The translations under genes were made by a program, and so were the position numbers. From the sequence record OP778610: a DNA stretch of 64,000 bases, one strand, 5' to 3'. Of the stretch, positions 2,216 to 63,992 are shown in pieces; position 1 is the first letter of the stretch; every line of letters starts with the position of its first letter. The notes beneath the pieces were generated by a model that saw nothing but the letters and a program-made list of their open reading frames with translations, was not told where the DNA came from and did not search any database. Origin of the DNA: Escherichia phage W70.

Positions 2216-3391
2216 TCAAAACGGAATATCGTCGTCAAAATCCATATCATCTACAGACATATTTACATGTCCTTCAATATCAGGGGTAGGTGAATCTTCT
2301 GCTGACGGAGTTAACTGCGGTTCCGGCTCAGGTTTCTTTTCCTCTTGCTTAGGAGTTGAAGCACCGTTACGGATCTTATCTTCCAATTGACAGATGAATC
2401 GGAAATTCTCTTCAGTCTTAGCAATAAAGGTTTCGATATTGTCACGACCCCAACGGGCAGAAAGAATGCCACACTGGCCTAAACGAGCACCGAAAGAGTA
2501 ATCATCCATAGATTTAAACTCTTCACGCAGTTTTGCTTTGATCGAATCCATCGCTGCAAGAACTTGTTCTACGATCACACCCTGATTTGCAATAGTTTCA
2601 TCAGGGAACATTGCATCGGTAATAGATAGTGCATTACCTAAACGAATAGGTAGATCATCTTTACCTTTACCTGAACGTGATCCTGTTCCAGTACTTGCAC
2701 CTTTTGGACCGTAAGCTTTAAAGCCTGTAACCGTACCATCATCTGAACGAACACCTGCAATACGACCACCTTCTGTAATCTGACCCGTCTGTTCATCAGT
2801 GAGGTTTACAGTAACTTCTGTGCCGTCTTCCAGCTTAACAACTACCTTATTGCCTTCGATAGATGTGATATCACCATAAATCTTCTTAGCTGCACCACCA
2901 GACGGCTTTTGCTGCTGTTGGGAACCACTTGATTGCTGCTGTTGCTGACGAGGCTCACGAGCACCGGATGCGTCAGTAATCTTGATACGTGCTTTCTTAC
3001 CTTCTGTAGAAGAACCTTGACTACCATCTTGTTTGGTATAGGTCTTGATAACAACAGGTAAACGAATTTTCATACCCTCTTTAAGATCGGTGTAACCACC
3101 TTCAGGATTTTTAATCTGGAACTGATTCTCATACTTCAGATTTTTAACTTCACCCTCACCAAAAGAAATCCATGCTTGATCTTCACCTTCTTTAAGAAGA
3201 ACCGCATAGCGGTGGGTATTGTTAATGCTTTTCTGCTGACCAGTATTCTTGTCTTTGAAGGTAGTCACTCGTGGGCTACCATCTTCATTAATACGTTTGA
3301 TCATGATACGTTCAATCGTACCTGCTGCAATGTTTACTGTGGTATCGGAAACAGCATCGTATACAGCATTGATAACTTTAACTTCAGACAT
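2216..3391 (-). CDS. single-stranded DNA-binding protein candidate with host-SSB-type C-terminal tip
   Basis: C-terminus DDMDFDDDIPF matches the bacterial SSB tail; Gln/Gly-rich linker (QQQQQSSGSQQQQ); sits in replication array. Confidence 0.55.
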   Translation of the reverse strand: MSEVKVINAVYDAVSDTTVNIAAGTIERIMIKRINEDGSPRVTTFKDKNTGQQKSINNTHRYAVLLKEGEDQAWISFGEGEVKNLKYENQFQIKNPEGGYTDLKEGMKIRLPVVIKTYTKQDGSQGSSTEGKKARIKITDASGAREPRQQQQQSSGSQQQQKPSGGAAKKIYGDITSIEGNKVVVKLEDGTEVTVNLTDEQTGQITEGGRIAGVRSDDGTVTGFKAYGPKGASTGTGSRSGKGKDDLPIRLGNALSITDAMFPDETIANQGVIVEQVLAAMDSIKAKLREEFKSMDDYSFGARLGQCGILSARWGRDNIETFIAKTEENFRFICQLEDKIRNGASTPKQEEKKPEPEPQLTPSAEDSPTPDIEGHVNMSVDDMDFDDDIPF

Positions 3392-10148: not shown

Positions 10149-10920
10149 CAAAAGTTTAACGAGGTCGTTACTCTCGCCCACATCATTACATGTTGCCATA
10201 CGTTTTCACATATGGATCGGACTATATCACCATCCTTTTCAGGATGCTCCCCATTTCGACGGCACTTGCTCGCCTACGCCTCTCGGCTAGTCTCTGAACG
10301 TTAGGACCATGTGTAGTCACAAGAGATGTGTGTCCAGTTTTTACGGATTTTTATGGACCTTACCACGTTGTAAGGATAACCCATATCCCGAATCTGTGCA
10401 CTTCCATAACCTTGCCCCAGGAAGTTGCAAATCTCTCTAACCTCTTCTTCGGTAACTATACTTCTGGCGTTATCAACCCCTGTTGCTGAACGACATTTAT
10501 CAGCAAAGGTTTTCTTGATATTTCCACCACGAGTTGTCCATTGGAGGTTTGAATAGTGGTTATTCCTTTTGTCAGGCCACTTATGATCAACCTCCGGCAA
10601 ACCTTCAGGGTTTGGTACAAAACACTCTGCCACCAAAACGTGAACAGCCTTTGTAGTCGTCCTTTTGTTGAGATACAGACTTACAATAAGATACCCACGT
10701 CCATTATCAACTGCCGCCATTGGTTTCCCTCGACGACCTATAATGGTCCCGTCTTCATAAACCTTGTAACCGAAATAATCTTTATATTCCACATGATCCT
10801 CTTCGCTGCTGATTAACATAGTCTCATACTAACTCACACTTGAATTAATATCAACCTTAGTCTTCCAGCAATTAAAGGAGTTTTCGATGTGAGTTACCTC
10901 ACAAAGCCACAATGTTACTT
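10149..10920 (-). mobile_element. group I intron in DNA polymerase gene, HNH-ORF-containing
   Basis: In-frame stop right after exon 1; core elements GACTAGCCGAGAGGCGTAG and GATATAGTCC on minus strand; ends in G before exon 2. Confidence 0.65.
10301..10819 (-). CDS. HNH homing endonuclease (intron-encoded)
   Basis: LPEVDHKWPDKRNNHYSNLQWTT HNH-type motif; lies inside intron. Confidence 0.7.
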   Translation of the reverse strand: MLISSEEDHVEYKDYFGYKVYEDGTIIGRRGKPMAAVDNGRGYLIVSLYLNKRTTTKAVHVLVAECFVPNPEGLPEVDHKWPDKRNNHYSNLQWTTRGGNIKKTFADKCRSATGVDNARSIVTEEEVREICNFLGQGYGSAQIRDMGYPYNVVRSIKIRKNWTHISCDYTWS

Positions 10921-13251
10921 ATGGTAATAGATAATACGTCTAACGCCTTCATCATACCAACCTTTCTTAACCAACTGCCAGTGCAGGAGGATACCCACCA
11001 AGTCAAACAGTGCAGCACCACCATTCTGCTGATAAGCATTAAGCAATGAGTGTTTGGAACGAGTGTAGATCTTACGTCCATCAAGACCGTAGATGAATCG
11101 CTTACCGTTAGCTTCCCAAAACTTCTCTAGTGCTTCTTTACGACCTTTCAAGCCGATGTTGCTATCCCAGAATGCGTCGATTACTGCCTGGGCCTTCTCA
11201 AGAGTGATCCCCAGCATTGATGCAATCTTCGCTGCCTGTGCCCCGTACATAATTCCGTATGTCACACCTTTACCTTCACCACGAGAAACCTTCTTCCCTG
11301 CCGCTTTGGTATACGCTTCTGCGTTTCGGGAGTGAGCATCTCCAGATTCCATGATACGAAGATAAGCACCGCCATCGAAATCATAAGCGCCCCATGCTGC
11401 GATCATACCTTCTAGGTTTGAACCGTCGATACCTACCTGATATTTACCCTCAGAGGCTCTGAATAGTTCACGCATCTCTTTACCGAGAAGAACTTTCTCA
11501 TCCGGCTTAGGTACGTTTGCTACGATCGTATGCTTACGACGACCTGTGTTAGTTATTCCACTATAACGGGCCGGAAGTTTACCGTCAACTCGTAGACGTG
11601 GATGGTTAAGCCATCCGGTATCAACCTTCTCTTCTTTCAGCGGGTCAAGAACAGATCGTCGGTTACGTAAAGACAGCCATTTAACAATCTGTTTAGCCAT
11701 TTCACCATCTACTCGCTCAAGGTTAGGGCAAAGACCCTGTTGATCCTTAAGTTGTGGAGATGTAGGTAATGCACGAGCTTTCTTACGGAAAAACTTGAAC
11801 ATCTTTTCTTTATCTGACCACTGCTTAGGTGTGATCGCCAAGCTTTTCAGAATCAGATCACGATACTCCGTCTGATCCAAATCTTCAATGTATTGACGAA
11901 CAATCAGATCAACTTCACTATCGGGACGTTGTTTCTTGAACTGATCTTTAGTTGCATCCTTTGTACGCCAAATTGTTGGGACCCATCCTGCATCACGGAT
12001 CAGGAACTTCTTAACGTCGTCCTGGTTACCAATACGCATCGGAATCATAATGTCCGGCATCTTTTGTTCTTTGATATCCATCAAAGCACGAGCCATATCT
12101 TCCGGCGGCAAAGGAACAAGCCCTTGCTGCTTAACGTTTTGTGCACGGATAAAATCACCCATTTTGGATTCGTCCTCTACACCGTGTTCAACACAATACT
12201 TGATCGCGGCAGCAGTAAGAGATCCGTCAGCCTTAAACGGCTTACTTGGTGCACCTTTAAATTCCAAGGCTTCCCAATTGATATTATAACCTAACTTCTC
12301 TAACCATTTCCAACCTGTACCGGAAAGAGATCCATCACCCTTGAAAGGTTTGGATGGGAATGTCGGTTGTGCTGATTTCGACATCTCTTTCTTCGGCAAC
12401 TTAGGTTCAACCTCTAACTCAATGTCAGTCATCATCTTATCGATACGATCACGAAGCTTGAGTGCTTTTTCTTCATCAAATGAAACACCCTGAATTTCTT
12501 GCTCAATCATCAGGTAGTCAGTCAACATACCTCGACGCAGGGCATTCTTCCAGTTGATCATTTTATACTTCTTCTGATCTTTGTCTGTTTCATCCTTAAA
12601 CATGAAGCGTTTATCATCCGGCATGGATTCACAGGAGATCTCTTTCATCAGAGCATCCCACACCATTTCGTTGATAATTACGTCTTCAATAATACGATCG
12701 CAATACTTCCAAAGTGGAAGGCCACGCCAATCTTCAATCGCCACTTTCTGGTTAGCTACTCGCATACCCCAAGCTTCAAGCCCGTGTGGCCCTACAGGCT
12801 TCATTTTACCTGTGACGGGGTTCTTTACCATCTCAGGACAACCGCGAGGCAGAGGGCGATCTGGATACAATGTACGGGACATTGAAAGTGTATCGAAGAT
12901 GGTTACTTGTTTACCATTGATCGTCCCCATGCAACCAGGGTCTGCAAACATATCGTAAGTTGTTCCTAGCATCTTCTTAAACAACTGGAGGTCATAGCCG
13001 AAGATGTTGTGGATAGCAACTGCTTTAGGCTCGGTAACGAACCATTCGTTTAATTCTTCAAGGGTGCGGATCTTGAAGTTTTTACCTTTAGATTGGATAA
13101 ATTTAACAGCTTGATCGTAACCTTCTCGCTGTGGATCAAGAAAGATGTTCCAGTTATCTTTTTTGTACTCTTTAAACAAGATGCAGTGGATTAGATCAAC
13201 TTCTGTCAACAGACCATTAGCTTCCGCATCTCCAATAAATAAGCCTTTCAT
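10921..13251 (-). CDS. DNA polymerase (family A), exon 1
   Basis: N-terminal FIGDAEANG 3'-5' exo motif; KKVSRGEGKGVTYGIMYGAQAAKIA resembles motif B; ORF stops one codon after ...YYH. Confidence 0.75.
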
Positions 13252-19449: not shown

Positions 19450-19971
19450 TCAGAAAGGTGCTTCGTCGTCGAAATCTACATCTTCAACTTCCGGTACATC
19501 AGGAATGTCACCTGCGGATTCAACGATACTCTGTTGTTCCCACGTAGGTTCCTCTGAAGGTTGGTCCATTTCTTCCATAACCTTCTTGATCTCTTCCTCT
19601 TGCTCACGCAGGAAGTTATCATCCGGCTCAGGAATATCTTCCTCTTTAATATCTGAACGAGTGAGATCACTGTTTTGTTCAGACAGAGGTTGAATCTCTG
19701 CTGCTTTAGGCTTAAAGTCTGGAGAACGATGATCATCTTCTGGATGAGCGGCATACCACTCACGAAGAGTTTCATAAGGACTCTCTAAGAAGCCCTCTGG
19801 CGGTTCCAGATAATCACCCGTATCAATGTCATAGAACACAGGGAATTTACCAGCACGACCGTGTTTACGGTCATCCAGAATAACAAAGTAAGAAGTGTTA
19901 CGTTGTTTCATCGGGAGTTCTGGATCTTTGTTACGTTCAATTCCCCACATATAGTAAGTATTCTTTATGTC
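19450..19971 (-). CDS. primase-helicase (T7 gp4-like), exon 3 with acidic C-terminal tail
   Basis: GIERNKDPE...VILDDRKHGRAGKFPVFYDIDTGDYLEP parallels T7 gp4 C-terminal region; ends DVDFDDEAPF. Confidence 0.6.
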   Translation of the reverse strand, partial: DIKNTYYMWGIERNKDPELPMKQRNTSYFVILDDRKHGRAGKFPVFYDIDTGDYLEPPEGFLESPYETLREWYAAHPEDDHRSPDFKPKAAEIQPLSEQNSDLTRSDIKEEDIPEPDDNFLREQEEEIKKVMEEMDQPSEEPTWEQQSIVESAGDIPDVPEVEDVDFDDEAPF

Positions 19972-20808
19972 CAGGCTACTCGCTAGGTAGCCTCGGTGTG
20001 CTAAGACACCCGCCCATACTTTCATACAGGAACAGACTATATCATCACCTTTCGGTGCTCTCCACTTCGGAACCGCTTGGTCCCTACGCCTTTCGGCTAG
20101 TCGTTGAAGATTTTGCATATTCAGGATACATGGTCCAAGTATACAGATTGGCAATTTCTTTCCAATCCCTTTTGCTTCGGATGTTTAGAACAACCGCCCT
20201 TTTAACTTGAATGCCACTACTTTCGGCTATTCTCTTTGCAGTCCATCCCTCTGAAAGTAACTGGCATATCTTATGCACGTCGTTTTCAGAAAGTCCGGTA
20301 CTGTAATGATCTTGCCCTCTAATTGGTAATTTGTTTTCTATCGAGTGTCGAAGATTTTCCTCTTCTGTTACCCACTCAAGGTTATCTTTATGATTGTTCA
20401 ACTTATTACCGTCTTTATGATTTACCTCTGGTAAATTTAAAGGGTTTGGTATATAAGCCTTCGCGACCATCCTGTGAACATACTCAGGCTTCCGCTTACC
20501 ATTTAAGATAACATTAACAACAAAATACCCTGTACCCTTACTTAATGAATTTTTAAGGAATCTTCCTGAAAATTCACTAAAAACTTGTCCATCTTCAGTG
20601 ATAAAGTATGGACTGTTTTCTTCTATTCTTACCATAAGTCCCCTCTTTCATGGGACCAAGATCTAGAATATGCAACTTTCCTGCTGATTACCCAATCCTG
20701 TACCTTTTTAAACATTCACGCTTGCCTTTGCAGACTACGTTGTAGTGTTACAGGCTCTAAGGGCTTCCCAGCAATTCAAAGAGTTTTAGATGCGCTCTAC
20801 TGCTGTTA
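19972..20808 (-). mobile_element. group I intron in primase-helicase gene, HNH-ORF-containing
   Basis: Stop directly after exon 2; core GACTAGCCGAAAGGCGTAG and GATATAGTCTG; 3' boundary approximate. Confidence 0.6.
20084..20635 (-). CDS. HNH homing endonuclease (intron-encoded)
   Basis: LPEVNHKDGNKLNNHKDNLEWVT HNH-type motif. Confidence 0.7.
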   Translation of the reverse strand: MVRIEENSPYFITEDGQVFSEFSGRFLKNSLSKGTGYFVVNVILNGKRKPEYVHRMVAKAYIPNPLNLPEVNHKDGNKLNNHKDNLEWVTEEENLRHSIENKLPIRGQDHYSTGLSENDVHKICQLLSEGWTAKRIAESSGIQVKRAVVLNIRSKRDWKEIANLYTWTMYPEYAKSSTTSRKA

Positions 20809-21399
20809 ACGCATCATTGCACGGCTACCAGCAAACTGCGCTGACTGGACTTGACCACCAAATTCATGAGGCTTGCCAGATTCAGGCTTATTAAGGTGAC
20901 AGAAGCAATAATAAGTAAAGCCAAGCTCTTTTGCCAGTTTGGAGATCTCATCCGAGAATCGTTCCAGTTCCTGGTTAGCTTCAGAAGCACTCATACCTTG
21001 CACAAGACGAGTGATCGGGTCAATAAAGATATCTTCACAACCTTCTACGATCACTGCGTGACGGATAGCACCTTTCAGTTCATCCCATACTGCACGACCA
21101 TAGTTGTTATAATAGATAACACTATCACCAACTTCATCAGTAGCTTTGATCAGTTCTTCTTGCTTAAAGTATCCACGTTGACCTTCAAAAACTTCATTGC
21201 CCCAAATGTCACGGTAAGTTCCATCTTCTTGAGGAATCATTACCTTTTCGGCATTAACAAAGTCTTTATGATAACGCTTACCTGCGATCTTCTTACAAGT
21301 GATCTCGTTCTCTTCTTCAAACTTAAACACCGCAGCTTTTGACTTTTCAATACCCGTGATGTGTTCAACCATTTGGTTAAGAAGTTCAGACTTGCCCAT
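20809..21399 (-). CDS. primase-helicase, exon 2 (helicase core)
   Basis: Starts MGKS (Walker A remainder); IFIDPITRL Walker B-like; FCHLNK and QFAGSRAMM helicase motifs. Confidence 0.65.
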
Positions 21400-21688
21400 T
21401 TTCACCGTTATGTTCGACAGGGTTCGCTACTCCCTGCCCGTTCTCTTACGAACTGCTACATGTCCCCATGCAGACCAGACTATATCTTCAACCTGTTTCC
21501 AGGTGCTATGCACTTCGGACCGCTTGGCCCTACTCTACTCGATTCAAGAGTCTAGCTCTTGTCTTTCGATAGTCGTTGCTCCTTCCTTTTTCAAGGCTTG
21601 GATCAGGATTACGTGTTCTACGCTTCCCCTGAGTTCACATAGTATTTAGTCGAGGCATCTCTGCCAAGGCTGGCTAGACTTAATGTTT
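21400..21688 (-). mobile_element. group I intron in primase-helicase gene, ORF-less
   Basis: About 290 nt between exon 1 ...IGAG and exon 2 MGKS...; core GCTAGACTC and GAAGATATAGTCTGG; no ORF. Confidence 0.6.
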
Positions 21689-22624
21689 ACCAGCACCGAT
21701 GAAGTAACCTTCACCTGGACGACGACCCAAGGTAAGCTTGGTCATGGTGGGCCAAGGGAACTTCTTGCCGAGTTTAGGGATCTCATGTGCCTTTTCGCGG
21801 AACTGTGAATAAGTCGAGAAACCATCAGGCACATATTCTTTTGGCTTCATTGCAGCCCAAAACAACTGATCAGAAAGACCTTTGTTATACATATCGCAAG
21901 GGTCCATATCTTCTGGAATATCCACGACCTTCATTTGTGGAATTACAGAGTATACCGCTGCAACTGCATCTTTACCTTTCATGATCCCTTTGGCCTTCTC
22001 TGCTTCTGTCGCACGGTCAGCATCGAAAGCTACGATAATCTCTTCAAACTTACTCAGAAGCTTATAGTTATTCTTCTGTGATAAGTTTTGCACGGCATTG
22101 GATGTACCGTTAGAGATAGATACAACTGTGAAGTTTGGTTTACGAGTGGAACCATCCTTCGGTTTGTACTTCTCTGTCAATACCTGCCACAAGATTGCAG
22201 CATCGTATTCACCTTCAGTGATAAAGATCATACGTTTGGAAGACTTGTTTGCACCTTCCAGACCAAACATATCACAGGCTACAGATTGGAAACCGATAGT
22301 TGTAAAGTGCCCTTTCTGTTGCTTAGGGATCGTAAGATCACGCTTTTTAAAACCTACAACCTTACCTTCCAATGTGTACGGAAAATAATGTGCTTCTGGA
22401 GTCATACCGTCTTTAGCTGACAACTTGGTACGAATACCAAATCGTTTAGCTGTCTTTTCGTCGATACCACGCTCAGGGATACTTTTACACGGGTAAGTCA
22501 ATACATCTTCAACTGTTTCTTCCACACGAGACACACCGCCGCCATAATTACGTGCCACCGAAGCTTTAGGGTTTTTATGTCCAAACTTATAACCGCCAAA
22601 CAAACTTTCGCCAATAGTGCTCAT
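21689..22624 (-). CDS. primase-helicase, exon 1 (TOPRIM primase domain)
   Basis: TOPRIM motifs ITEGEYDA and FDADRA; ends GEGYFIGAG (start of Walker A). Confidence 0.7.
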
Positions 22625-23957: not shown

Positions 23958-25316
23958 TTACTGATTGTTGAAAATGCTCGGGAACTTCTCGTGATAGAAG
24001 TCTACAACATCCTGATCAACGATGATATCTTTTACTCGCAGACGCTTCATCAGGCGAAGACCTTCTACGGATGTGGCACGAGATAGCATGACGTAGGCTT
24101 GCCCAGGTGTAAAAGTACCAAAACCAAGATCAATATTTACTTTACCCAAGGTAAGACCCTGCGCTTTATGACCCGTGATCGCATAGCCTAACTTAAATGG
24201 GTACTGGATATACTCACCGATAGATTTATCGACAAGAACAGTTTTTTCAACCATCTTCTTGATCGTCTTTTTGGTTCCGTCAGGCATATCCACCTCTTCC
24301 TCTTCAAGCATCATCTTTTTCTCAGGTACTTGAGCAACGTTGTTCCATGTTGCAGGGCCGATTGGAACCATCTTGCCATCGATATCTACAACAACAAATG
24401 TTTTTGCGATACGACGAACAATACCGACTGTACCGTTGACATAATCAGGCACTTTCTTCTTCTGATCATTGTCGTTAACAACAATCATTACTTTAAGACC
24501 TTCCTTGAGAAAGAGTTTTTCATTAACTGGACGTTCAACAAACTCACCAGTGATACGGGCATTGAATTCATGCTGTTCAGCATTAATCTTTGCGTACTCT
24601 TTGTTGTTGATCTCTTCTGCCAGCTTGTTTGTGGTAGTTAAAGTTACTGCCCCGTCAAGTGGACGACCAAAGCAACGCTGGTTAAAGAAGTTAACAGCAT
24701 CAGGGATGTTTTTCCCGATACGAATATTGTTCAGGTGTTCTGCAAACACTGGATCACTTTGGCGATGAACTTTAGGAAGATAAGCATAGGTCAGATTCAA
24801 AGATTCCCAAGTTTCACACCCAAAAGGAATTTCTTTCCCGTGCAGTTCACGGAACAAAGGAACCTCTTCTTTCTTAAGTACAGGCTTGATCTGGAAGCCG
24901 TCACCAAACATGATGATCTGGAGTCCACCAAAAGGCTTATCGGATTTACGATGGTGGCGAAGTTTCATATCGATTTCTTTCAGTTTGTCACTTCGAGTCA
25001 TACCGATCTCATCGAACACGATACCATCGAGTGCATCAGATGCCATAAGCATAGCTGCCTTTTTAGATTTTGCCTTATAATCCTCGGAAGTTGTGACACC
25101 AAAGGTTAAACCAAACGCTTTATGAGTCGTAACACCACGGATGTTTAATGATGCCACGCCTGTTGGACCAACAAACAGAAAACTATCAGCAAAGAAGTCA
25201 CGCAGTGCTGCGATCATCATACTTTTACCACTACCACCAGGTCCGGTGATAAAAACGTTTTCCCCATTCATGATTGCTTGCATTGCCGCTTCGTTACCGA
25301 TCACTGTCTTAGTCAT
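23958..25316 (-). CDS. Dda/RecD-like superfamily-1 DNA helicase
   Basis: Walker A GPGGSGKS, Walker B IVFDEIGM, GDGFQIKPV motif. Confidence 0.75.
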   Translation of the reverse strand: MTKTVIGNEAAMQAIMNGENVFITGPGGSGKSMMIAALRDFFADSFLFVGPTGVASLNIRGVTTHKAFGLTFGVTTSEDYKAKSKKAAMLMASDALDGIVFDEIGMTRSDKLKEIDMKLRHHRKSDKPFGGLQIIMFGDGFQIKPVLKKEEVPLFRELHGKEIPFGCETWESLNLTYAYLPKVHRQSDPVFAEHLNNIRIGKNIPDAVNFFNQRCFGRPLDGAVTLTTTNKLAEEINNKEYAKINAEQHEFNARITGEFVERPVNEKLFLKEGLKVMIVVNDNDQKKKVPDYVNGTVGIVRRIAKTFVVVDIDGKMVPIGPATWNNVAQVPEKKMMLEEEEVDMPDGTKKTIKKMVEKTVLVDKSIGEYIQYPFKLGYAITGHKAQGLTLGKVNIDLGFGTFTPGQAYVMLSRATSVEGLRLMKRLRVKDIIVDQDVVDFYHEKFPSIFNNQ

Positions 25317-60386: not shown

Positions 60387-60719
60387 TTAAGCCATACCGA
60401 GCAAATTCATCTCTTTTAACAGGCCTTCCAAGGTAGCATTAAACAACACTGGCTTACCTTCCTCCAGCTTATTGAAGAAGATTTCATGAGTCTCATTGTC
60501 TATCTTCGCCATCTCTTTTACCACTTCTTCTGACAAAAAGATATCGCTACCTCTTAACCCAGGGAACATTAAGAGGATTGCCGTTTTTGAATCAGTTGCC
60601 CAACCCTTTCCACCATCCAGACTGAATACCTTGATCATCATTTTACTCCAAATTAGCCAGTGCAGTTCGGACTTCAAGAAGAGTTGCCTCTCTTGACTCA
60701 TTTCTTTCCGAGAAATCAC
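60387..60719 (-). CDS. hypothetical protein
   Basis: 110-aa ORF. Confidence 0.4.
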   Translation of the reverse strand: MISRKEMSQERQLFLKSELHWLIWSKMMIKVFSLDGGKGWATDSKTAILLMFPGLRGSDIFLSEEVVKEMAKIDNETHEIFFNKLEEGKPVLFNATLEGLLKEMNLLGMA

Positions 60720-60939
60720 GAATTATCATCTTGTACTTCATTTCTTCTTCAGTACGGAGAATCTTCTGTTCGATCAACTTGTAAACTTTGTCCGCTCTTT
60801 CTGGAAACAACGCTGCAAAGAGATTCCAGTCTTCCAATCGACCTTCGTAAGACTCTCCAGAGGTAAAGTACCGATCTCTTTCGATGCTGTCAACAAAATA
60901 ATAACCGAATTCACCATAACGCCAAGTTTCATTTTTCAT
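60643..60939 (-). CDS. hypothetical protein, family with 61101-61340
   Basis: YFTSGESYEGRLEDWNLFAALFPERADKV. Confidence 0.45.
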   Translation of the reverse strand: MKNETWRYGEFGYYFVDSIERDRYFTSGESYEGRLEDWNLFAALFPERADKVYKLIEQKILRTEEEMKYKMIIRDFSERNESREATLLEVRTALANLE

Positions 60940-61098
60940 TTGATGTACCGCGCCGCAGCAGTGCCGATAAGGAATCCAGCAGGAACTGCGACGATGATAG
61001 CTTCAACCATTTTCAGGTCCGCTGCAACACAAGCTGCACCAACAACAACAGAACCAGCCCAGATAGCAATTACACGTTTCAAAAATTTAGTATTCATT
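60940..61098 (-). CDS. small membrane peptide (53 aa)
   Basis: Hydrophobic; below track cutoff. Confidence 0.3.
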
Positions 61099-61100
61099 CG

Positions 61101-61340
61101 TTAGTCTCCTGATTTTGTTAAGTTTTCTTTTATTTTTACGTATTCAATTAAAGAGTTTGCAAGTTCACCATCGATTTTCTCACAAACCATTAGTATCTCT
61201 CTTACCTTTTCGGGATGAACAGACTCATAAAAGTTCCAATCCTCTGTTCTTCCTTCTGGAGTTTTAGAAGTGAAGTATTCTTCTCTGTCTTGCTCCGGTA
61301 AGAGATAATATACAAGATTCAGCCTTTTATCGTCAAGCAC
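61101..61340 (-). CDS. hypothetical protein, family with 60643-60939
   Basis: YFTSKTPEGRTEDWNFYESVHPEKV. Confidence 0.45.
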   Translation of the reverse strand: MLDDKRLNLVYYLLPEQDREEYFTSKTPEGRTEDWNFYESVHPEKVREILMVCEKIDGELANSLIEYVKIKENLTKSGD

Positions 61341-61349
61341 TTTATCACC

Positions 61350-61724
61350 TTATTCGTAAAAAAGTTTATCCGCTTGCTCATTCAACCAACCCTGGCGAAA
61401 AGCCCCCTTGAGTACCTCTGCCCACTTCGGATTTGCTGCCTCTAAGAGAAGAATTTCTTCTTTCTCTATGTTCATAGGATCAGCAAAGAAATCCAAAATC
61501 TGTTCATTAAATATACCCTCTATCAAGATCCCTTTATATTTCAACGTCAAACGTTTTGTCATAAAACCTTGAGATAACAAAGCCTCCTCCACATCGAGTT
61601 TCGTAGTTGGAGGGTTTGGAAAAGGAAAGCCCGTCATAGGTGTTGGCGATGCACCTGTCTTCACAAAGGTATTCCCTCCAGTATTATTGAAGAAACCTTT
61701 CGCATTTTTATCATAAAGCGACAT
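61350..61724 (-). CDS. hypothetical protein
   Basis: 124-aa ORF. Confidence 0.45.
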   Translation of the reverse strand: MSLYDKNAKGFFNNTGGNTFVKTGASPTPMTGFPFPNPPTTKLDVEEALLSQGFMTKRLTLKYKGILIEGIFNEQILDFFADPMNIEKEEILLLEAANPKWAEVLKGAFRQGWLNEQADKLFYE

Positions 61725-61727
61725 ATT

Positions 61728-62165
61728 TCATACCCCCTCTTGAATTTTTATCTCTGCCTCGTCCAAAGCTTCACCCATTGCAAGGATATACCTTGAAATT
61801 TCAGGAAACAACGCTTCAAACATCTCTATCTCTTCTTCAAGTATATCCGTTGGATCGAGGAAATACTCTTCAAGGACTATCCGCTTTGTCCCACTCTTGT
61901 TGCCATAAGTAACAAAAACGAAACGATCAGGTTTGCCAATAGAATCTTTGGAGGTTCTCCATTGGAAAAGATGCCTGTTTGAACTTATGTTTATCCTTTT
62001 GTCAGCCTTGTCCAGCGGGATTCTAAAACTTACGGATGTTGACATTCCTTCGGATTGAGTCCATTTTTCACTCTTCTTAAAAATATTGTTCCGGTATCTG
62101 TTTTTACCTAAGGCATTAAAAGTCCACTGCCTGCTCAATCTCTCGATTATCTCTTTAGTTTTCAA
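61728..62165 (-). CDS. hypothetical protein
   Basis: 145-aa ORF. Confidence 0.45.
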   Translation of the reverse strand: MKTKEIIERLSRQWTFNALGKNRYRNNIFKKSEKWTQSEGMSTSVSFRIPLDKADKRINISSNRHLFQWRTSKDSIGKPDRFVFVTYGNKSGTKRIVLEEYFLDPTDILEEEIEMFEALFPEISRYILAMGEALDEAEIKIQEGV

Positions 62166-62683
62166 AACGGTATGTCCTCGTCAACAATAAATTTTATAGC
62201 ATTCTTTACAGCCGCTTTATTCAGATGTTGAACACGCTGGAAGAACATTAGGTTCAAGTCAAGAAGAATATCATCATCTCCGTACAACGCCGTGAAAAGA
62301 TCAAGCTCTTCATCTGTCGGATGCGTGGGATTCTCAAATAAGCCCTCAAACACCACCTGGGCCTCATTTCTTTTAGCCAGCGTGGTTGAGTCTCGATAGA
62401 TATTTAATACCGTGTGTACATCATCTACGCTTAGGATTTTGACACATTCCAGATCTCCTGTGTCACCATCGAGATAAAGAGTGATCGCAGGAGTTGACCA
62501 ATTTGATTCACTTATTGCATAAACGTAGATGCTTTTGCGATTACCAACTGCAATAGACTCTTCAATTTTCTTTTCTGCCGCCTTAAAGAAAGGTTGGTGT
62601 TTGATCCAATGCTCCCAACCAATCCAACGAGCACCCTTACCATACGCATTCAGCACATGATTCTCAATGTTACGTTTACTCAT
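62162..62683 (-). CDS. hypothetical protein with SSB-tail-like C-terminus
   Basis: Ends IVDEDIPF, close to bacterial SSB tip DDDIPF. Confidence 0.5.
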   Translation of the reverse strand: MSKRNIENHVLNAYGKGARWIGWEHWIKHQPFFKAAEKKIEESIAVGNRKSIYVYAISESNWSTPAITLYLDGDTGDLECVKILSVDDVHTVLNIYRDSTTLAKRNEAQVVFEGLFENPTHPTDEELDLFTALYGDDDILLDLNLMFFQRVQHLNKAAVKNAIKFIVDEDIPF

Positions 62684-62695
62684 TTAAAACCCCCA

Positions 62696-62730
62696 TAAAA
62701 GAAAAGCCAGCCACCTTTCGGTGACTGGCC
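62696..62730 (-). terminator. intrinsic terminator
   Basis: Minus-strand stem gccagtcacc-gaaa-ggtggctggc then T-run. Confidence 0.55.
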
Positions 62731-62735
62731 TAGAG

Positions 62736-63203
62736 TTAGCTACTAATCACCACGAATGCAGTAACTATAGCATACAGAAATCCAATTGCAACAAAAATTA
62801 TCATAATGGGGTCAGAGGTTACTCGCTTAAGTTTTCCTAAGAAAGTTGATCGGTATTTGTGTTCCTTCTCCATTTTGTTTATCAAAATGATGAAAGAGTT
62901 GATATGAATATCTTCAGCACTCTCTGCAAAAGGTGTGTACTTGAACGTACCTTCTGTATTTGCAACAAAGCTGCGATGATACTTTTTACCGTCATAACTT
63001 TCTATAAGAAGACCATCCTTTGTCACCCGATAACTGACTGAACGGAACTTGTCATAAAAAACGTATGCCCTGAATCCATCTTGATCGGGAACAGCCTTTC
63101 TGACGTAGCCGTCAAAAAACTCCAATCTCTTTCCAGAATTCAGTTCCAAGTTGTCAGCTAACATAGGGAGTTGACTTACGTATGTAAAGTACATAATGAT
63201 CAT
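62736..63203 (-). CDS. membrane-anchored protein
   Basis: C-terminal hydrophobic segment IMIIFVAIGFLYAIVTAFVVI. Confidence 0.45.
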   Translation of the reverse strand: MIIMYFTYVSQLPMLADNLELNSGKRLEFFDGYVRKAVPDQDGFRAYVFYDKFRSVSYRVTKDGLLIESYDGKKYHRSFVANTEGTFKYTPFAESAEDIHINSFIILINKMEKEHKYRSTFLGKLKRVTSDPIMIIFVAIGFLYAIVTAFVVISS

Positions 63204-63395: not shown

Positions 63396-63992
63396 TTATT
63401 CATTTCCCCGATATTTTTGAATTGCGATCGAAGTCCTTGGTTCAGCCAGTCCAGTTCCATATGCATACCATTTGCCAGTGAGTGTTTTTCGAGCACCGTA
63501 GGACCCAATCTCCATGTCGTCACAATAAACATCGTAACCGATCGGGGTCTTAACTAAAAAGAGTACATTACGAGGAATCCCTAAGAGGGTAAACATCGAT
63601 ATGGCATCTTTTGCGATCTCGTGAGAAATCTTCTCTGCATTCTTTTTACTGGTTGCACTTCTAAACAGTTCCATCTTTAAGAAGATATTGAAATGAATAT
63701 CATCAAGAACCATCTCATCACGGAAGCATGGGGTCACAGCCATCCAACTGCCATCTTCCAACTTCCCTTCTTTGTCGAGTTGGAGGAATGATTGCTCTGC
63801 GGAAGCCACTGCATATTTCCCGTTCTGGACAATTCGAAGATCAGTAACATCTTCGGGGCATGTATGGTCCATAGCATCATCATCCACATAGCTTGGGACA
63901 ACCTTATCATTGAAACCTTTACATTTCCACCAACTGTGGGCATCAATAAACAATGTGAAGTCGATGTTTGACATTTTAGCCTCGCTTACCAT
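63396..63992 (-). CDS. hypothetical protein
   Basis: 198-aa ORF; start near window edge. Confidence 0.45.
   Translation of the reverse strand: MVSEAKMSNIDFTLFIDAHSWWKCKGFNDKVVPSYVDDDAMDHTCPEDVTDLRIVQNGKYAVASAEQSFLQLDKEGKLEDGSWMAVTPCFRDEMVLDDIHFNIFLKMELFRSATSKKNAEKISHEIAKDAISMFTLLGIPRNVLFLVKTPIGYDVYCDDMEIGSYGARKTLTGKWYAYGTGLAEPRTSIAIQKYRGNE

What the first reader, a model, noticed from the sequence alone, without database searches (positions are those of the whole stretch)
62162..62683. Second protein ending in an SSB-tip mimic (DEDIPF)
An unrelated 173-aa protein ends ...KFIVDEDIPF. With the SSB-like protein (DDDIPF) and the helicase tail (DDEAPF), this genome encodes three proteins with acidic Phe-terminated tails. 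The helicase tail fits T7-type replisome contacts; this third one has no obvious replisome role and may hijack or block host SSB-interactome proteins.
Basis: inference. Interest (0 to 1): 0.55.

Follow-up and report, generated by a model that had tools for sequence, protein, structure and literature searches.

The report
Phage protein with SSB-tip tail
A small phage protein of unknown function ends in the same six-residue tag (DEDIPF) that single-stranded-DNA-binding proteins use to dock their partners; the tag is real and unlikely to be chance, but what it docks to is untested.

Summary
A 173-aa ORF at 62162-62683, on the minus strand, ends in KFIVDEDIPF. Two other proteins in the window end in DFDDDIPF and DFDDEAPF. 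The window is a Septuagintavirus (Vequintavirinae) coliphage, 98.5-100% identical to phage A73; the gene is A73_235, annotated as hypothetical.

The 391-aa DDDIPF protein has OB folds and carries the last nine residues of E. coli SSB. The DDEAPF protein is the T7-gp4-type primase-helicase. Both tails are conserved across the subfamily.

The target's tail is not. Only two lineages have it (DEDIPF and EEIPF, 14 distinct sequences). Certrevirus orthologues end in FFPMKDK, FYPK or FWEP.

The model shows a compact alpha/beta domain with no informative structural neighbour. There is no disordered linker, and only about four residues (DIPF) protrude. The acidic codons also form the Shine-Dalgarno of the overlapping downstream gene, and the Phe codon plus stop form its TTG start.

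Best reading (about 0.45): a recently gained SSB-tip-type docking tag that takes the protein to the pockets used by the phage SSB and helicase tails. Recruitment is more likely than blocking, because the tail is single, has no linker and lacks the proximal DFDD segment.

Nothing about binding was tested. Interest is moderate.

The parts
62162..62683 (-). Target CDS, 173 aa (orthologue of A73_235, phrog_12009, unknown function). Compact alpha/beta domain, pI about 5.1.
   Evidence: ORF; annotation; PHROG hit E 1e-36; no Pfam, NCBIfam or PDB sequence hit; AF2 model pLDDT 82; pI.
62165..62182 (-). Six codons GAC GAG GAC ATA CCG TTT, encoding D168-E169-D170-I171-P172-F173: the SSB-tip-like hexapeptide.
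   Evidence: Sequence. Invariant in 12 Septuagintavirus-cluster sequences and present as EEIPF in 2 sequences of a 44%-identical lineage. Only residues 171-173 have pLDDT below 50.
62175..62179 (-). GAGGA inside codons E169-D170: a Shine-Dalgarno-like sequence 8 nt upstream of the TTG start of the downstream gene.
   Evidence: Sequence. The same arrangement (GAGGAG, 7-nt spacer, TTG) occurs in the P0002 contig L010.
62163..62165 (-). TTG start codon of the downstream gene 61728..62165, made of the last base of the Phe codon plus TG of the stop codon (4-nt overlap TTGA).
   Evidence: The N-terminus is conserved from this TTG between the window and the P0002 contig (LKTKEIIERL vs LSKQNLERL).
62704..62731 (-). 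Terminator-like hairpin (12-bp stem, T tract) directly upstream of the target's RBS, so the target heads a new or read-through unit.
   Evidence: sequence. phiTE has an annotated terminator at the equivalent place.
61728..62165 (-). Downstream, translationally coupled gene (145 aa). It shares the motif F-x-D-P-x4-EE-x2-F-x-a-L with target residues 109-144 and may be a paralogue.
   Evidence: hhalign probability 56%, E 1e-4; blastp in a small database.
2216..3391 (-). Phage SSB-like protein (391 aa, phrog_4477): OB-type beta domain, a second small beta domain, a helical domain, a disordered linker, then the tail MDFDDDIPF (tail codons 2219-2245).
   Evidence: 97 homologues, most ending D[DE]D[IV]PF; tails in CR8, DU_PP_I and FV3.
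19450..20016 (-). C-terminal exon of the T7-gp4-type primase-helicase, ending VDFDDEAPF (tail codons 19453-19476).
   Evidence: Relatives end DDDCPF, DDAAPF and EDDECPF.
10915..13251 (-). Family-A DNA polymerase (778 aa). By analogy with T7 gp5 it is a candidate receptor for the acidic ...PF tails (inference only).
   Evidence: NCBIfam Pol I hits; annotation; T7 precedent in PMC12339929 and the bioRxiv paper 10.64898/2026.02.22.705581.

Best explanation
The 173-aa protein is a small, acidic, cytoplasmic, non-virion protein of an otherwise uncharacterised family restricted to Vequintavirinae. In one branch of that family (Septuagintavirus plus one metagenomic sister lineage) it has gained a C-terminal SSB-tip-type short linear motif, D-E-D-I-P-F with a free carboxylate.

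Proposed mechanism (inferred, not shown): Pro-Phe and the free carboxylate insert into the hydrophobic pocket, and the preceding acidic residues contact the basic rim, of proteins that recognise the SSB tip. These would be the same sites used by the phage's own SSB-like protein (tail identical to E. coli SSB) and by its primase-helicase. They could lie on the phage family-A polymerase, by analogy with T7 gp5, or on host SSB-interacting proteins recruited to phage ssDNA.

The tail is single, has no flexible linker and lacks the proximal DFDD segment. The contact should therefore be weak (tens of micromolar). That suits transient recruitment of the protein and whatever its globular domain binds to the replication or recombination machinery better than stoichiometric blocking.
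For: 1. The sequence is an exact natural variant of the tip: DEDIPF is the ending of 10 of 97 homologues of the phage SSB-like protein, and DDDIPF of 52.
2. Chance expectation is about 7e-5 per proteome.
3. The motif is invariant in 12 distinct Septuagintavirus-cluster sequences. It is kept as EEIPF in a lineage only 44% identical overall, where the preceding 15 residues are largely different.
4. The Ile and Pro codons differ synonymously between lineages (ATA/ATC, CCG/CCA), and Pro also differs within the genus (CCG/CCA in UPEC06). This points to protein-level conservation.
5. The model leaves I171-F173 disordered and exposed. ExoI and RecO crystals resolve only DIPF or IPF of the SSB peptide (PMC10143822).
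6. The same genome has a T7-type replisome whose SSB-like and helicase tails are conserved across genera. In T7 such tails dock on the polymerase.
7. In a truncated sample of 80 IMG/VR proteins ending in DEDIPF*, the tag also sits on non-SSB proteins. These include primase-helicases, a DnaB-like protein (my reading of the sequence), an annealing protein, an AAA ATPase and small families of unknown function, one of them a 75-aa helical protein with no linker. A tip tag on a non-SSB phage protein is therefore a recurring pattern.
Against: - No binding data of any kind.
- The tail is absent from most of the family: Certrevirus and other orthologues end FFPMKDK, FFPLKD, FYPK, FWEP, FYPVQ, LEKWF or FEGTW. 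The family's core function therefore does not need it.
- There is no disordered linker, and D168-E169 are modelled inside the last beta strand, which could sterically limit docking.
- It lacks the proximal DF of DFDDDIPF, which contributes about 10-20-fold in affinity.
- The acidic codons and the terminal TTT-TGA overlap the Shine-Dalgarno and TTG start of the next gene, so part of the conservation has a nucleotide-level explanation.
- Only two independent lineages are available, so conservation of I-P-F is statistically weak on its own.
Confidence: 0.45

Rival explanations
1. Decoy or blocker. The protein is made in large amounts and its DEDIPF end occupies the SSB-tip pockets of host proteins such as ExoI, RecQ, RecJ, PriA, chi, Ung or RecG, or of a defence factor that reads SSB tips. 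This would shut down host repair or restart, or protect phage ssDNA.
For: The motif matches the tip. The protein is acidic and small. The gene lies among small early/middle-type genes of unknown function rather than in the replication module. Orthologues are not virion components. Phage SSBs are known triggers of defence systems, so tip-related counter-measures are conceivable.
Against: The chain has a single tail with no linker and lacks DFDD. DIPF alone has an IC50 of about 100 uM for ExoI and 45 uM for RecO, against about 4.5 uM for the octapeptide. It would also have to outcompete tetrameric host SSB and the abundant phage SSB-like protein, which carries the full MDFDDDIPF. The phage's own machinery presumably needs the same pockets. 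No toxicity or expression data are available.
Confidence: 0.18
2. No tip function. The ending is a by-product of gene overlap and drift. The GAG-GAx codons are kept because they are the Shine-Dalgarno of the translationally coupled downstream gene. The final NNT-TGA is kept because it makes that gene's TTG start. I-P-F is then a coincidence, or simply a hydrophobic cap of the last beta strand.
For: GAGGA lies 8 nt upstream of the TTG start in the window, and GAGGAG 7 nt upstream in the sister lineage. The downstream protein is conserved from that TTG. The tail is missing from most orthologues. Residues up to E169 are modelled as part of the fold. Other orthologues also end in aromatic or Pro-rich stubs such as FFP, FYP, FWEP and KWF, which hints at a structural C-terminal cap.
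Against: The overlap fixes only two acidic residues and the last base of the final codon. It does not fix D168, Ile, Pro or Phe. My estimate of the residual chance of D-x-x-I-P-F is still about 3e-5 per overlapping gene; that is hand arithmetic from the frequencies with an assumed P(Phe given NNT) of about 0.1, not a tool result. The Ile and Pro codons vary synonymously while the residues are kept. The same hexapeptide is used as a tip by the phage's own SSB family.
Confidence: 0.25
3. The tail docks somewhere else. Either it binds the ssDNA-binding cleft of the phage SSB-like protein, as the acidic tails of T7 gp2.5 and E. coli SSB do in cis, and so modulates SSB loading; or it mediates self-association of the 173-aa protein or pairing with its neighbouring paralogues.
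For: Acidic tails of SSBs are known to compete with ssDNA for their own OB folds (established knowledge on T7 gp2.5 and E. coli SSB; the general role of the gp2.5 tail appears). The target sits in a row of possibly paralogous small genes and is translationally coupled to one of them.
Against: Only three acidic residues, far fewer than in the DNA-mimicking tails. There is no evidence of oligomerisation. The paralogy signal is weak (56% probability).
Confidence: 0.12

Closest known systems
E. coli SSB C-terminal tip (SSB-Ct, MDFDDDIPF) and its partner proteins (ExoI, RecO, RecQ, PriA, PriC, chi and others)
   Same: C-terminal position with a free Phe carboxylate. The distal DIPF is identical, and the three preceding positions are acidic or similar (DED vs DDD). 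IPF is the part required for function and the only part seen in ExoI and RecO crystals (PMC10143822; PMC7145534).
   Different: The motif is not attached to an OB-fold ssDNA binder. There is no intrinsically disordered linker of about 56 residues. The proximal D-F is missing (I-V instead). The chain carries one tail, not the four of a tetramer, as far as known. Binding is untested.
Phage T7 gp2.5 (SSB) and gp4 (primase-helicase) acidic C-terminal tails docking on gp5 DNA polymerase
   Same: The same kind of replisome is present: a family-A polymerase, a gp4-like primase-helicase and an SSB. Here too, more than one phage protein ends in an acidic tail with a terminal Phe. In T7, loss of the terminal Phe abolishes polymerase binding, and the tail binds the front basic patch.
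   Different: The T7 tails are long, highly acidic and disordered. The target has three acidic residues and about four free residues. The target is neither an SSB nor a helicase. No receptor patch on the phage polymerase was examined here.
The phage's own SSB-like family (phrog_4477; A73_119, CR3 gp035, PVP-SE1 gp39, rV5 gp209-like)
   Same: Identical or near-identical hexapeptide; DEDIPF occurs in 10 of 97 members.
   Different: There is no sequence or fold relationship with the target. In that family the tail is universal and follows a disordered linker of about 40 residues. In the target's family it is lineage-specific.
Other phage proteins ending in DEDIPF in IMG/VR (primase-helicases, an annealing protein phrog_4787, a gp2.5-like protein, an AAA ATPase phrog_249, the small unknown phrog_1811)
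   Same: A non-SSB or non-canonical protein carrying the tip tag; some also have little or no linker.
   Different: The families are unrelated, and most are recognisable DNA-metabolism proteins. None is homologous to the target, and none has been characterised in the papers I could search.

Membership tests
SSB-Ct (acidic tip) docking motif | Located at the extreme C-terminus, ending in Pro-Phe with a free carboxylate | tested here: met
   ...DEDIPF followed directly by TGA.
SSB-Ct (acidic tip) docking motif | Hexapeptide consensus D-D-D-I-P-F | tested here: met
   5 of 6 identical, with a conservative D-to-E change at position -5. The same variant ends 10 of 97 phage SSB-like homologues. The consensus is quoted in the abstract of PMC5872125.
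SSB-Ct (acidic tip) docking motif | Proximal D-F-D-D segment of the octa/nonapeptide | tested here: not met
   The target has I-V-D-E at these positions. DFDD contributes about 10-20-fold in affinity (PMC10143822).
SSB-Ct (acidic tip) docking motif | Presented on a long intrinsically disordered linker | tested here: not met
   The AF2 model has a beta strand at 163-169, and only residues 171-173 have pLDDT below 50.
SSB-Ct (acidic tip) docking motif | Binds the hydrophobic pocket and basic rim of SSB-interacting proteins | not testable with these tools
   Needs peptide or protein binding assays, or a complex prediction; no multimer prediction was available.
Bacterial/phage OB-fold SSB (PF00436 and analogues) | OB-fold ssDNA-binding core | tested here: not met
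   [not shown]
phrog_12009 (Vequintavirinae protein of unknown function) | Full-length profile match | tested here: met
   E 1.1e-36, residues 7-164 on profile positions 6-164 of 172. Orthologues are syntenic in Certrevirus phages and in a metagenomic contig.
T7-type acidic replisome tails (gp2.5 / gp4) | Long, strongly acidic, disordered C-terminal segment ending in Phe on an SSB or helicase | tested here: not met
   Only 3 acidic residues in the last 8, and no disordered segment. The host protein is neither an SSB nor a helicase. By contrast, the window's helicase and SSB-like protein do meet this description.
Virion (ejected) protein | Detected in purified particles | tested here: not met
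   In the CB7 virion proteome all 26 proteins map to region 1 plus CB7_55. The orthologue CB7_169 lies in region 4. The UniProt name 'virion structural protein' for the PBES 02 fusion ORF is not backed by RefSeq.

The most novel reading that the evidence does not exclude
The protein is a dedicated soluble 'tip decoy'. It would be a phage factor whose only interface with the host is a borrowed SSB tip. It would use that tip to jam a specific host SSB-interacting enzyme or an SSB-tip-reading defence sensor during infection. This would be the first described viral inhibitor acting by mimicry of the SSB C-terminal tip.
Probability: 0.15. Interest if true: 0.7.

Novelty: new variant of a known kind. 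Interest (0 to 1): 0.4.

Why it matters
The SSB tip is the hub address label of bacterial DNA metabolism, and phage SSBs and T7-type helicases are known to use similar labels. If a non-SSB, non-helicase protein has picked up the same label recently, it would show how phages rewire replication and repair networks by gaining a six-residue motif. It would also give a handle for assigning a function to a family of hypothetical proteins.

The small survey made here suggests that tip tags on non-SSB phage proteins are common and largely undescribed. That may be the more useful lead. For this one gene, the practical value is a cheap and clear experiment: test the peptide and a delta-F173 mutant.

Tried and rejected
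- **Sequence annotation.** Pfam, NCBIfam and PDB sequence searches gave nothing for the target.
- **More homologues.** The 5.8-billion word-index search found 1 cluster. The exhaustive 1.84-billion search found about 7 real clusters. IMG/VR gave 5 loci and the metagenome scan 4 loci, all Certrevirus-like. The family is small, and no further tail-bearing lineage turned up.
- **Recombination origin.** I checked whether the tail was copied from the SSB gene by recombination. The 3' ends agree only as far as the shared residues require, so nothing can be concluded.
- **Virion protein idea.** It came from a UniProt name in BFVD. I rejected it on the RefSeq annotation and the CB7 proteome.
- **Paralogy with downstream genes.** Only weakly supported.
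- **Literature.** Five searches for a described non-SSB SSB-tip mimic found none.
- **Not attempted.** I did not look for a tail-binding basic patch on the phage polymerase or predict any complex.

Full report
**1. The observation**

The ORF is real but lies on the minus strand. Window 62162..62683(-) encodes 173 aa ending ...NKAAVKNAIKFIVDEDIPF*. The plus strand of the same interval is not coding.

A scan of every ORF of at least 40 aa found three real proteins with acidic ...PF ends:
- the target;
- a 391-aa protein at 2216..3391(-), ending MDFDDDIPF;
- the C-terminal part of the primase-helicase at 19450..20154(-), ending VDFDDEAPF.

From the window's amino-acid composition, the chance that a protein ends in [DE]3-I-P-F is about 2.8e-7, or about 7e-5 per 264-gene phage. 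The target and the 391-aa protein are otherwise unrelated.

**2. Where the window comes from**

The window is 98.5-100% identical to Escherichia phage A73. A73 belongs to the genus Septuagintavirus of the Vequintavirinae (PMC11370258). The target is A73_235, annotated as hypothetical.

The window is not A73 itself. It is 4.7 kb shorter between positions 24000 and 60000, and its helicase gene is interrupted. It may be the sister isolate W70; that is inference only.

**3. The two reference tails**

*The 391-aa protein (phrog_4477, unannotated in the literature I read).*
- The model has an N-terminal beta domain, a second small beta domain, a helical domain, a disordered linker of about 40 residues, and then the tail.
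- Its last nine residues are those of the E. coli SSB P9 peptide (PMC7145534).
- Among 97 homologues the endings are DDDIPF (52), DEDIPF (10), DDDVPF (6) and a few single-residue variants. CR8, DU_PP_I and FV3 show the same.

*The primase-helicase.* It is T7-gp4-like. Relatives end in DDDCPF, DDAAPF and EDDECPF.

*The rest of the replisome.* The polymerase is family A and a Dda-like helicase is present. The phage therefore has a T7-type replisome in which both SSB and helicase carry acidic Phe-terminated tails. In T7 such tails dock on the polymerase: the text quoted says loss of F232 of gp2.5 prevents polymerase interaction, and describes the front basic patch.

**4. The target protein**

There is no Pfam, NCBIfam or PDB sequence match. 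The only family hit is phrog_12009, of unknown function.

The family is small:
- 29 phage records, of which 5 are Septuagintavirus and 24 Certrevirus;
- about 7 clusters in an exhaustive search of 1.84 billion representatives;
- nothing new in IMG/VR or in metagenomes.

An AlphaFold2 model from 8 sequences has pLDDT 82 and pTM 0.79. It shows three N-terminal helices, a six-stranded sheet, two helices and a final strand at 163-169. Only residues 171-173 are of low confidence. The fold has no informative neighbour.

The protein is acidic, with pI 5.1. Its Certrevirus orthologue CB7_169 lies in genome region 4. None of the 26 virion proteins found by mass spectrometry maps there, so it is an intracellular protein.

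**5. Distribution of the tail**

- All 12 distinct Septuagintavirus-cluster sequences end in KFIVDEDIPF.
- A syntenic metagenomic lineage, 44% identical, ends in MKIIEEIPF in 2 sequences.
- Every other orthologue lacks it. Endings are SVFFPMKDK, SVFFPLKD, STFYPK, KIVFWEP, AIFYPVQ, VQWLEKWF, KILFEGTW and others.
- Those phages nevertheless keep DFDDDIPF on their SSB-like protein.

The tail is therefore a lineage-specific gain on a family whose core function does not require it. Between the two tail-bearing lineages the preceding 15 residues are mostly different. I-P-F is kept through synonymous codon changes: ATA/ATC and CCG/CCA between lineages, and CCG/CCA within the genus.

**6.

The last codons read GAC GAG GAC ATA CCG TTT TGA.
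- The downstream gene (61728..62165) starts at the TTG formed by the last T of the Phe codon plus TG of the stop.
- GAGGA, in codons E169-D170, sits 8 nt upstream of it, which is ideal Shine-Dalgarno spacing.
- The sister lineage has GAGGAG, a 7-nt spacer and TTG.
- The downstream protein is conserved from that TTG.

Two of the three acidic residues and the last base of the final codon therefore also have a nucleotide-level reason to be conserved. This weakens the argument from conservation but does not remove it. It does not explain D168, Ile, Pro or the choice of Phe.

**7. How well the tail could work as a tip**

According to PMC10143822:
- the SSB octapeptide has a proximal DFDD half and a distal DIPF half;
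- only DIPF or IPF is seen in ExoI and RecO crystals, and IPF is required for function;
- DIPF alone binds about 10-20-fold more weakly: IC50 about 100 uM for ExoI and 45 uM for RecO, against about 4.5 uM for the octapeptide.

The target has the distal half intact, I-V-D-E in place of D-F-D-D, no linker, and one tail per chain. It is a plausible but weak ligand. That fits transient recruitment to tip-binding sites better than blocking them, particularly since the phage's own SSB-like protein displays the full nonapeptide.

**8. Context from a small survey**

Of the 80 proteins analysed:
- others match PHROGs annotated as SSB, gp2.5-like or annealing protein;
- others are primase-helicases, a DnaB-like helicase and a primase-polymerase-like protein (my reading of the sequences), or an AAA ATPase;
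- many belong to small families of unknown function, including a 75-aa helical protein with no linker.

The sample is truncated, so it gives no frequencies. It does show that tip tags are not confined to SSBs. I found no paper describing a non-SSB 'SSB-tip mimic' in five literature searches.

**9. Verdict**

- The 'mimic' reading is supported at the level of sequence, exposure and non-randomness.
- The 'hijack or block host partners' reading is untested, and on present evidence it is less likely than simple docking or recruitment.
- A quarter of my probability stays on 'no tip function', meaning overlap constraint plus coincidence.

I class it as a new variant of a known kind: SSB-tip or T7-type tail docking placed on an unrelated globular protein. 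Interest is moderate. It can be resolved with a peptide-binding assay and a delta-F173 mutant that preserves the downstream start signals.

Noticed in passing
window 2216-3391 (-) and its homologues P0019, P0020 (Salmonella phage SSBI34), P0026, P0027, P0040, P0064, P0066, P0081, P0091, P0094-P0096, P0098-P0100; L013:901-2130 (PVP-SE1 gp39): In 16 of the 97 homologues of the SSB-like protein, and in PVP-SE1 gp39, the DFDDDIPF motif is not C-terminal. It is followed by a conserved extension of about 15 residues, APIGLQY(P/A)NHAIYxL. The Phe carboxylate that canonical tip binding uses is then missing. This suggests a different binding mode, processing, or a second motif.
   Followed up: no
window 19450-22624 (-): The primase-helicase gene is in three pieces relative to the intact A73 gene: aa 1-312 at 22624-21689, aa 313-511 at 21522-20809, and aa about 494-681 at 20016-19453. 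An HNH endonuclease ORF (20084-20635) lies in the larger gap. The flanking exons are only 86-87% identical to A73. This looks like an intron with a homing endonuclease and a co-conversion tract. The A73 helicase ends DDWDDDAPF, the window's ends VDFDDEAPF.
   Followed up: partly
window 60643-62683 (-): A row of small genes downstream of the target (145, 124, 79 and 98 aa) shares a short motif, F-x-D-P / Y-F-T-S ... EE/ED-W-x-F-x-a-L-F-P-E, with target residues 109-144. The 79-aa and 98-aa genes match each other at E 2e-10 in a tiny database. The target profile against the 145-aa gene gives hhalign probability 56%. This may be a tandem paralogue family. In PBES 02 the orthologue is annotated as fused to the upstream paralogue, giving 331 aa.
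   Followed up: partly
[not shown]
   Followed up: partly
window 62704-62731 (-): A strong terminator-like hairpin lies between the membrane-protein gene (62736-63203) and the target's ribosome-binding site. phiTE has an annotated terminator at the same position.
   Followed up: no
IMG/VR loci L023-L102: Proteins ending in exactly DEDIPF include many small (80-110 aa) unannotated families with a low-complexity linker before the tail. Examples are the L060 and L044 clusters, 11 members each. These are probably unrecognised phage SSBs. A CobS-like AAA ATPase (L071) and a 75-aa helical protein (L040, phrog_1811) also carry the tail.
   Followed up: partly
window 63396-63992 (-): A 198-aa protein matches phrog_4806, annotated as 'histidyl tRNA synthetase'. 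It has only a marginal hit to the class II aaRS core (Pfam E 0.04), and different records annotate it as seryl- or histidyl-tRNA synthetase. It is too short to be a full synthetase.
   Followed up: no
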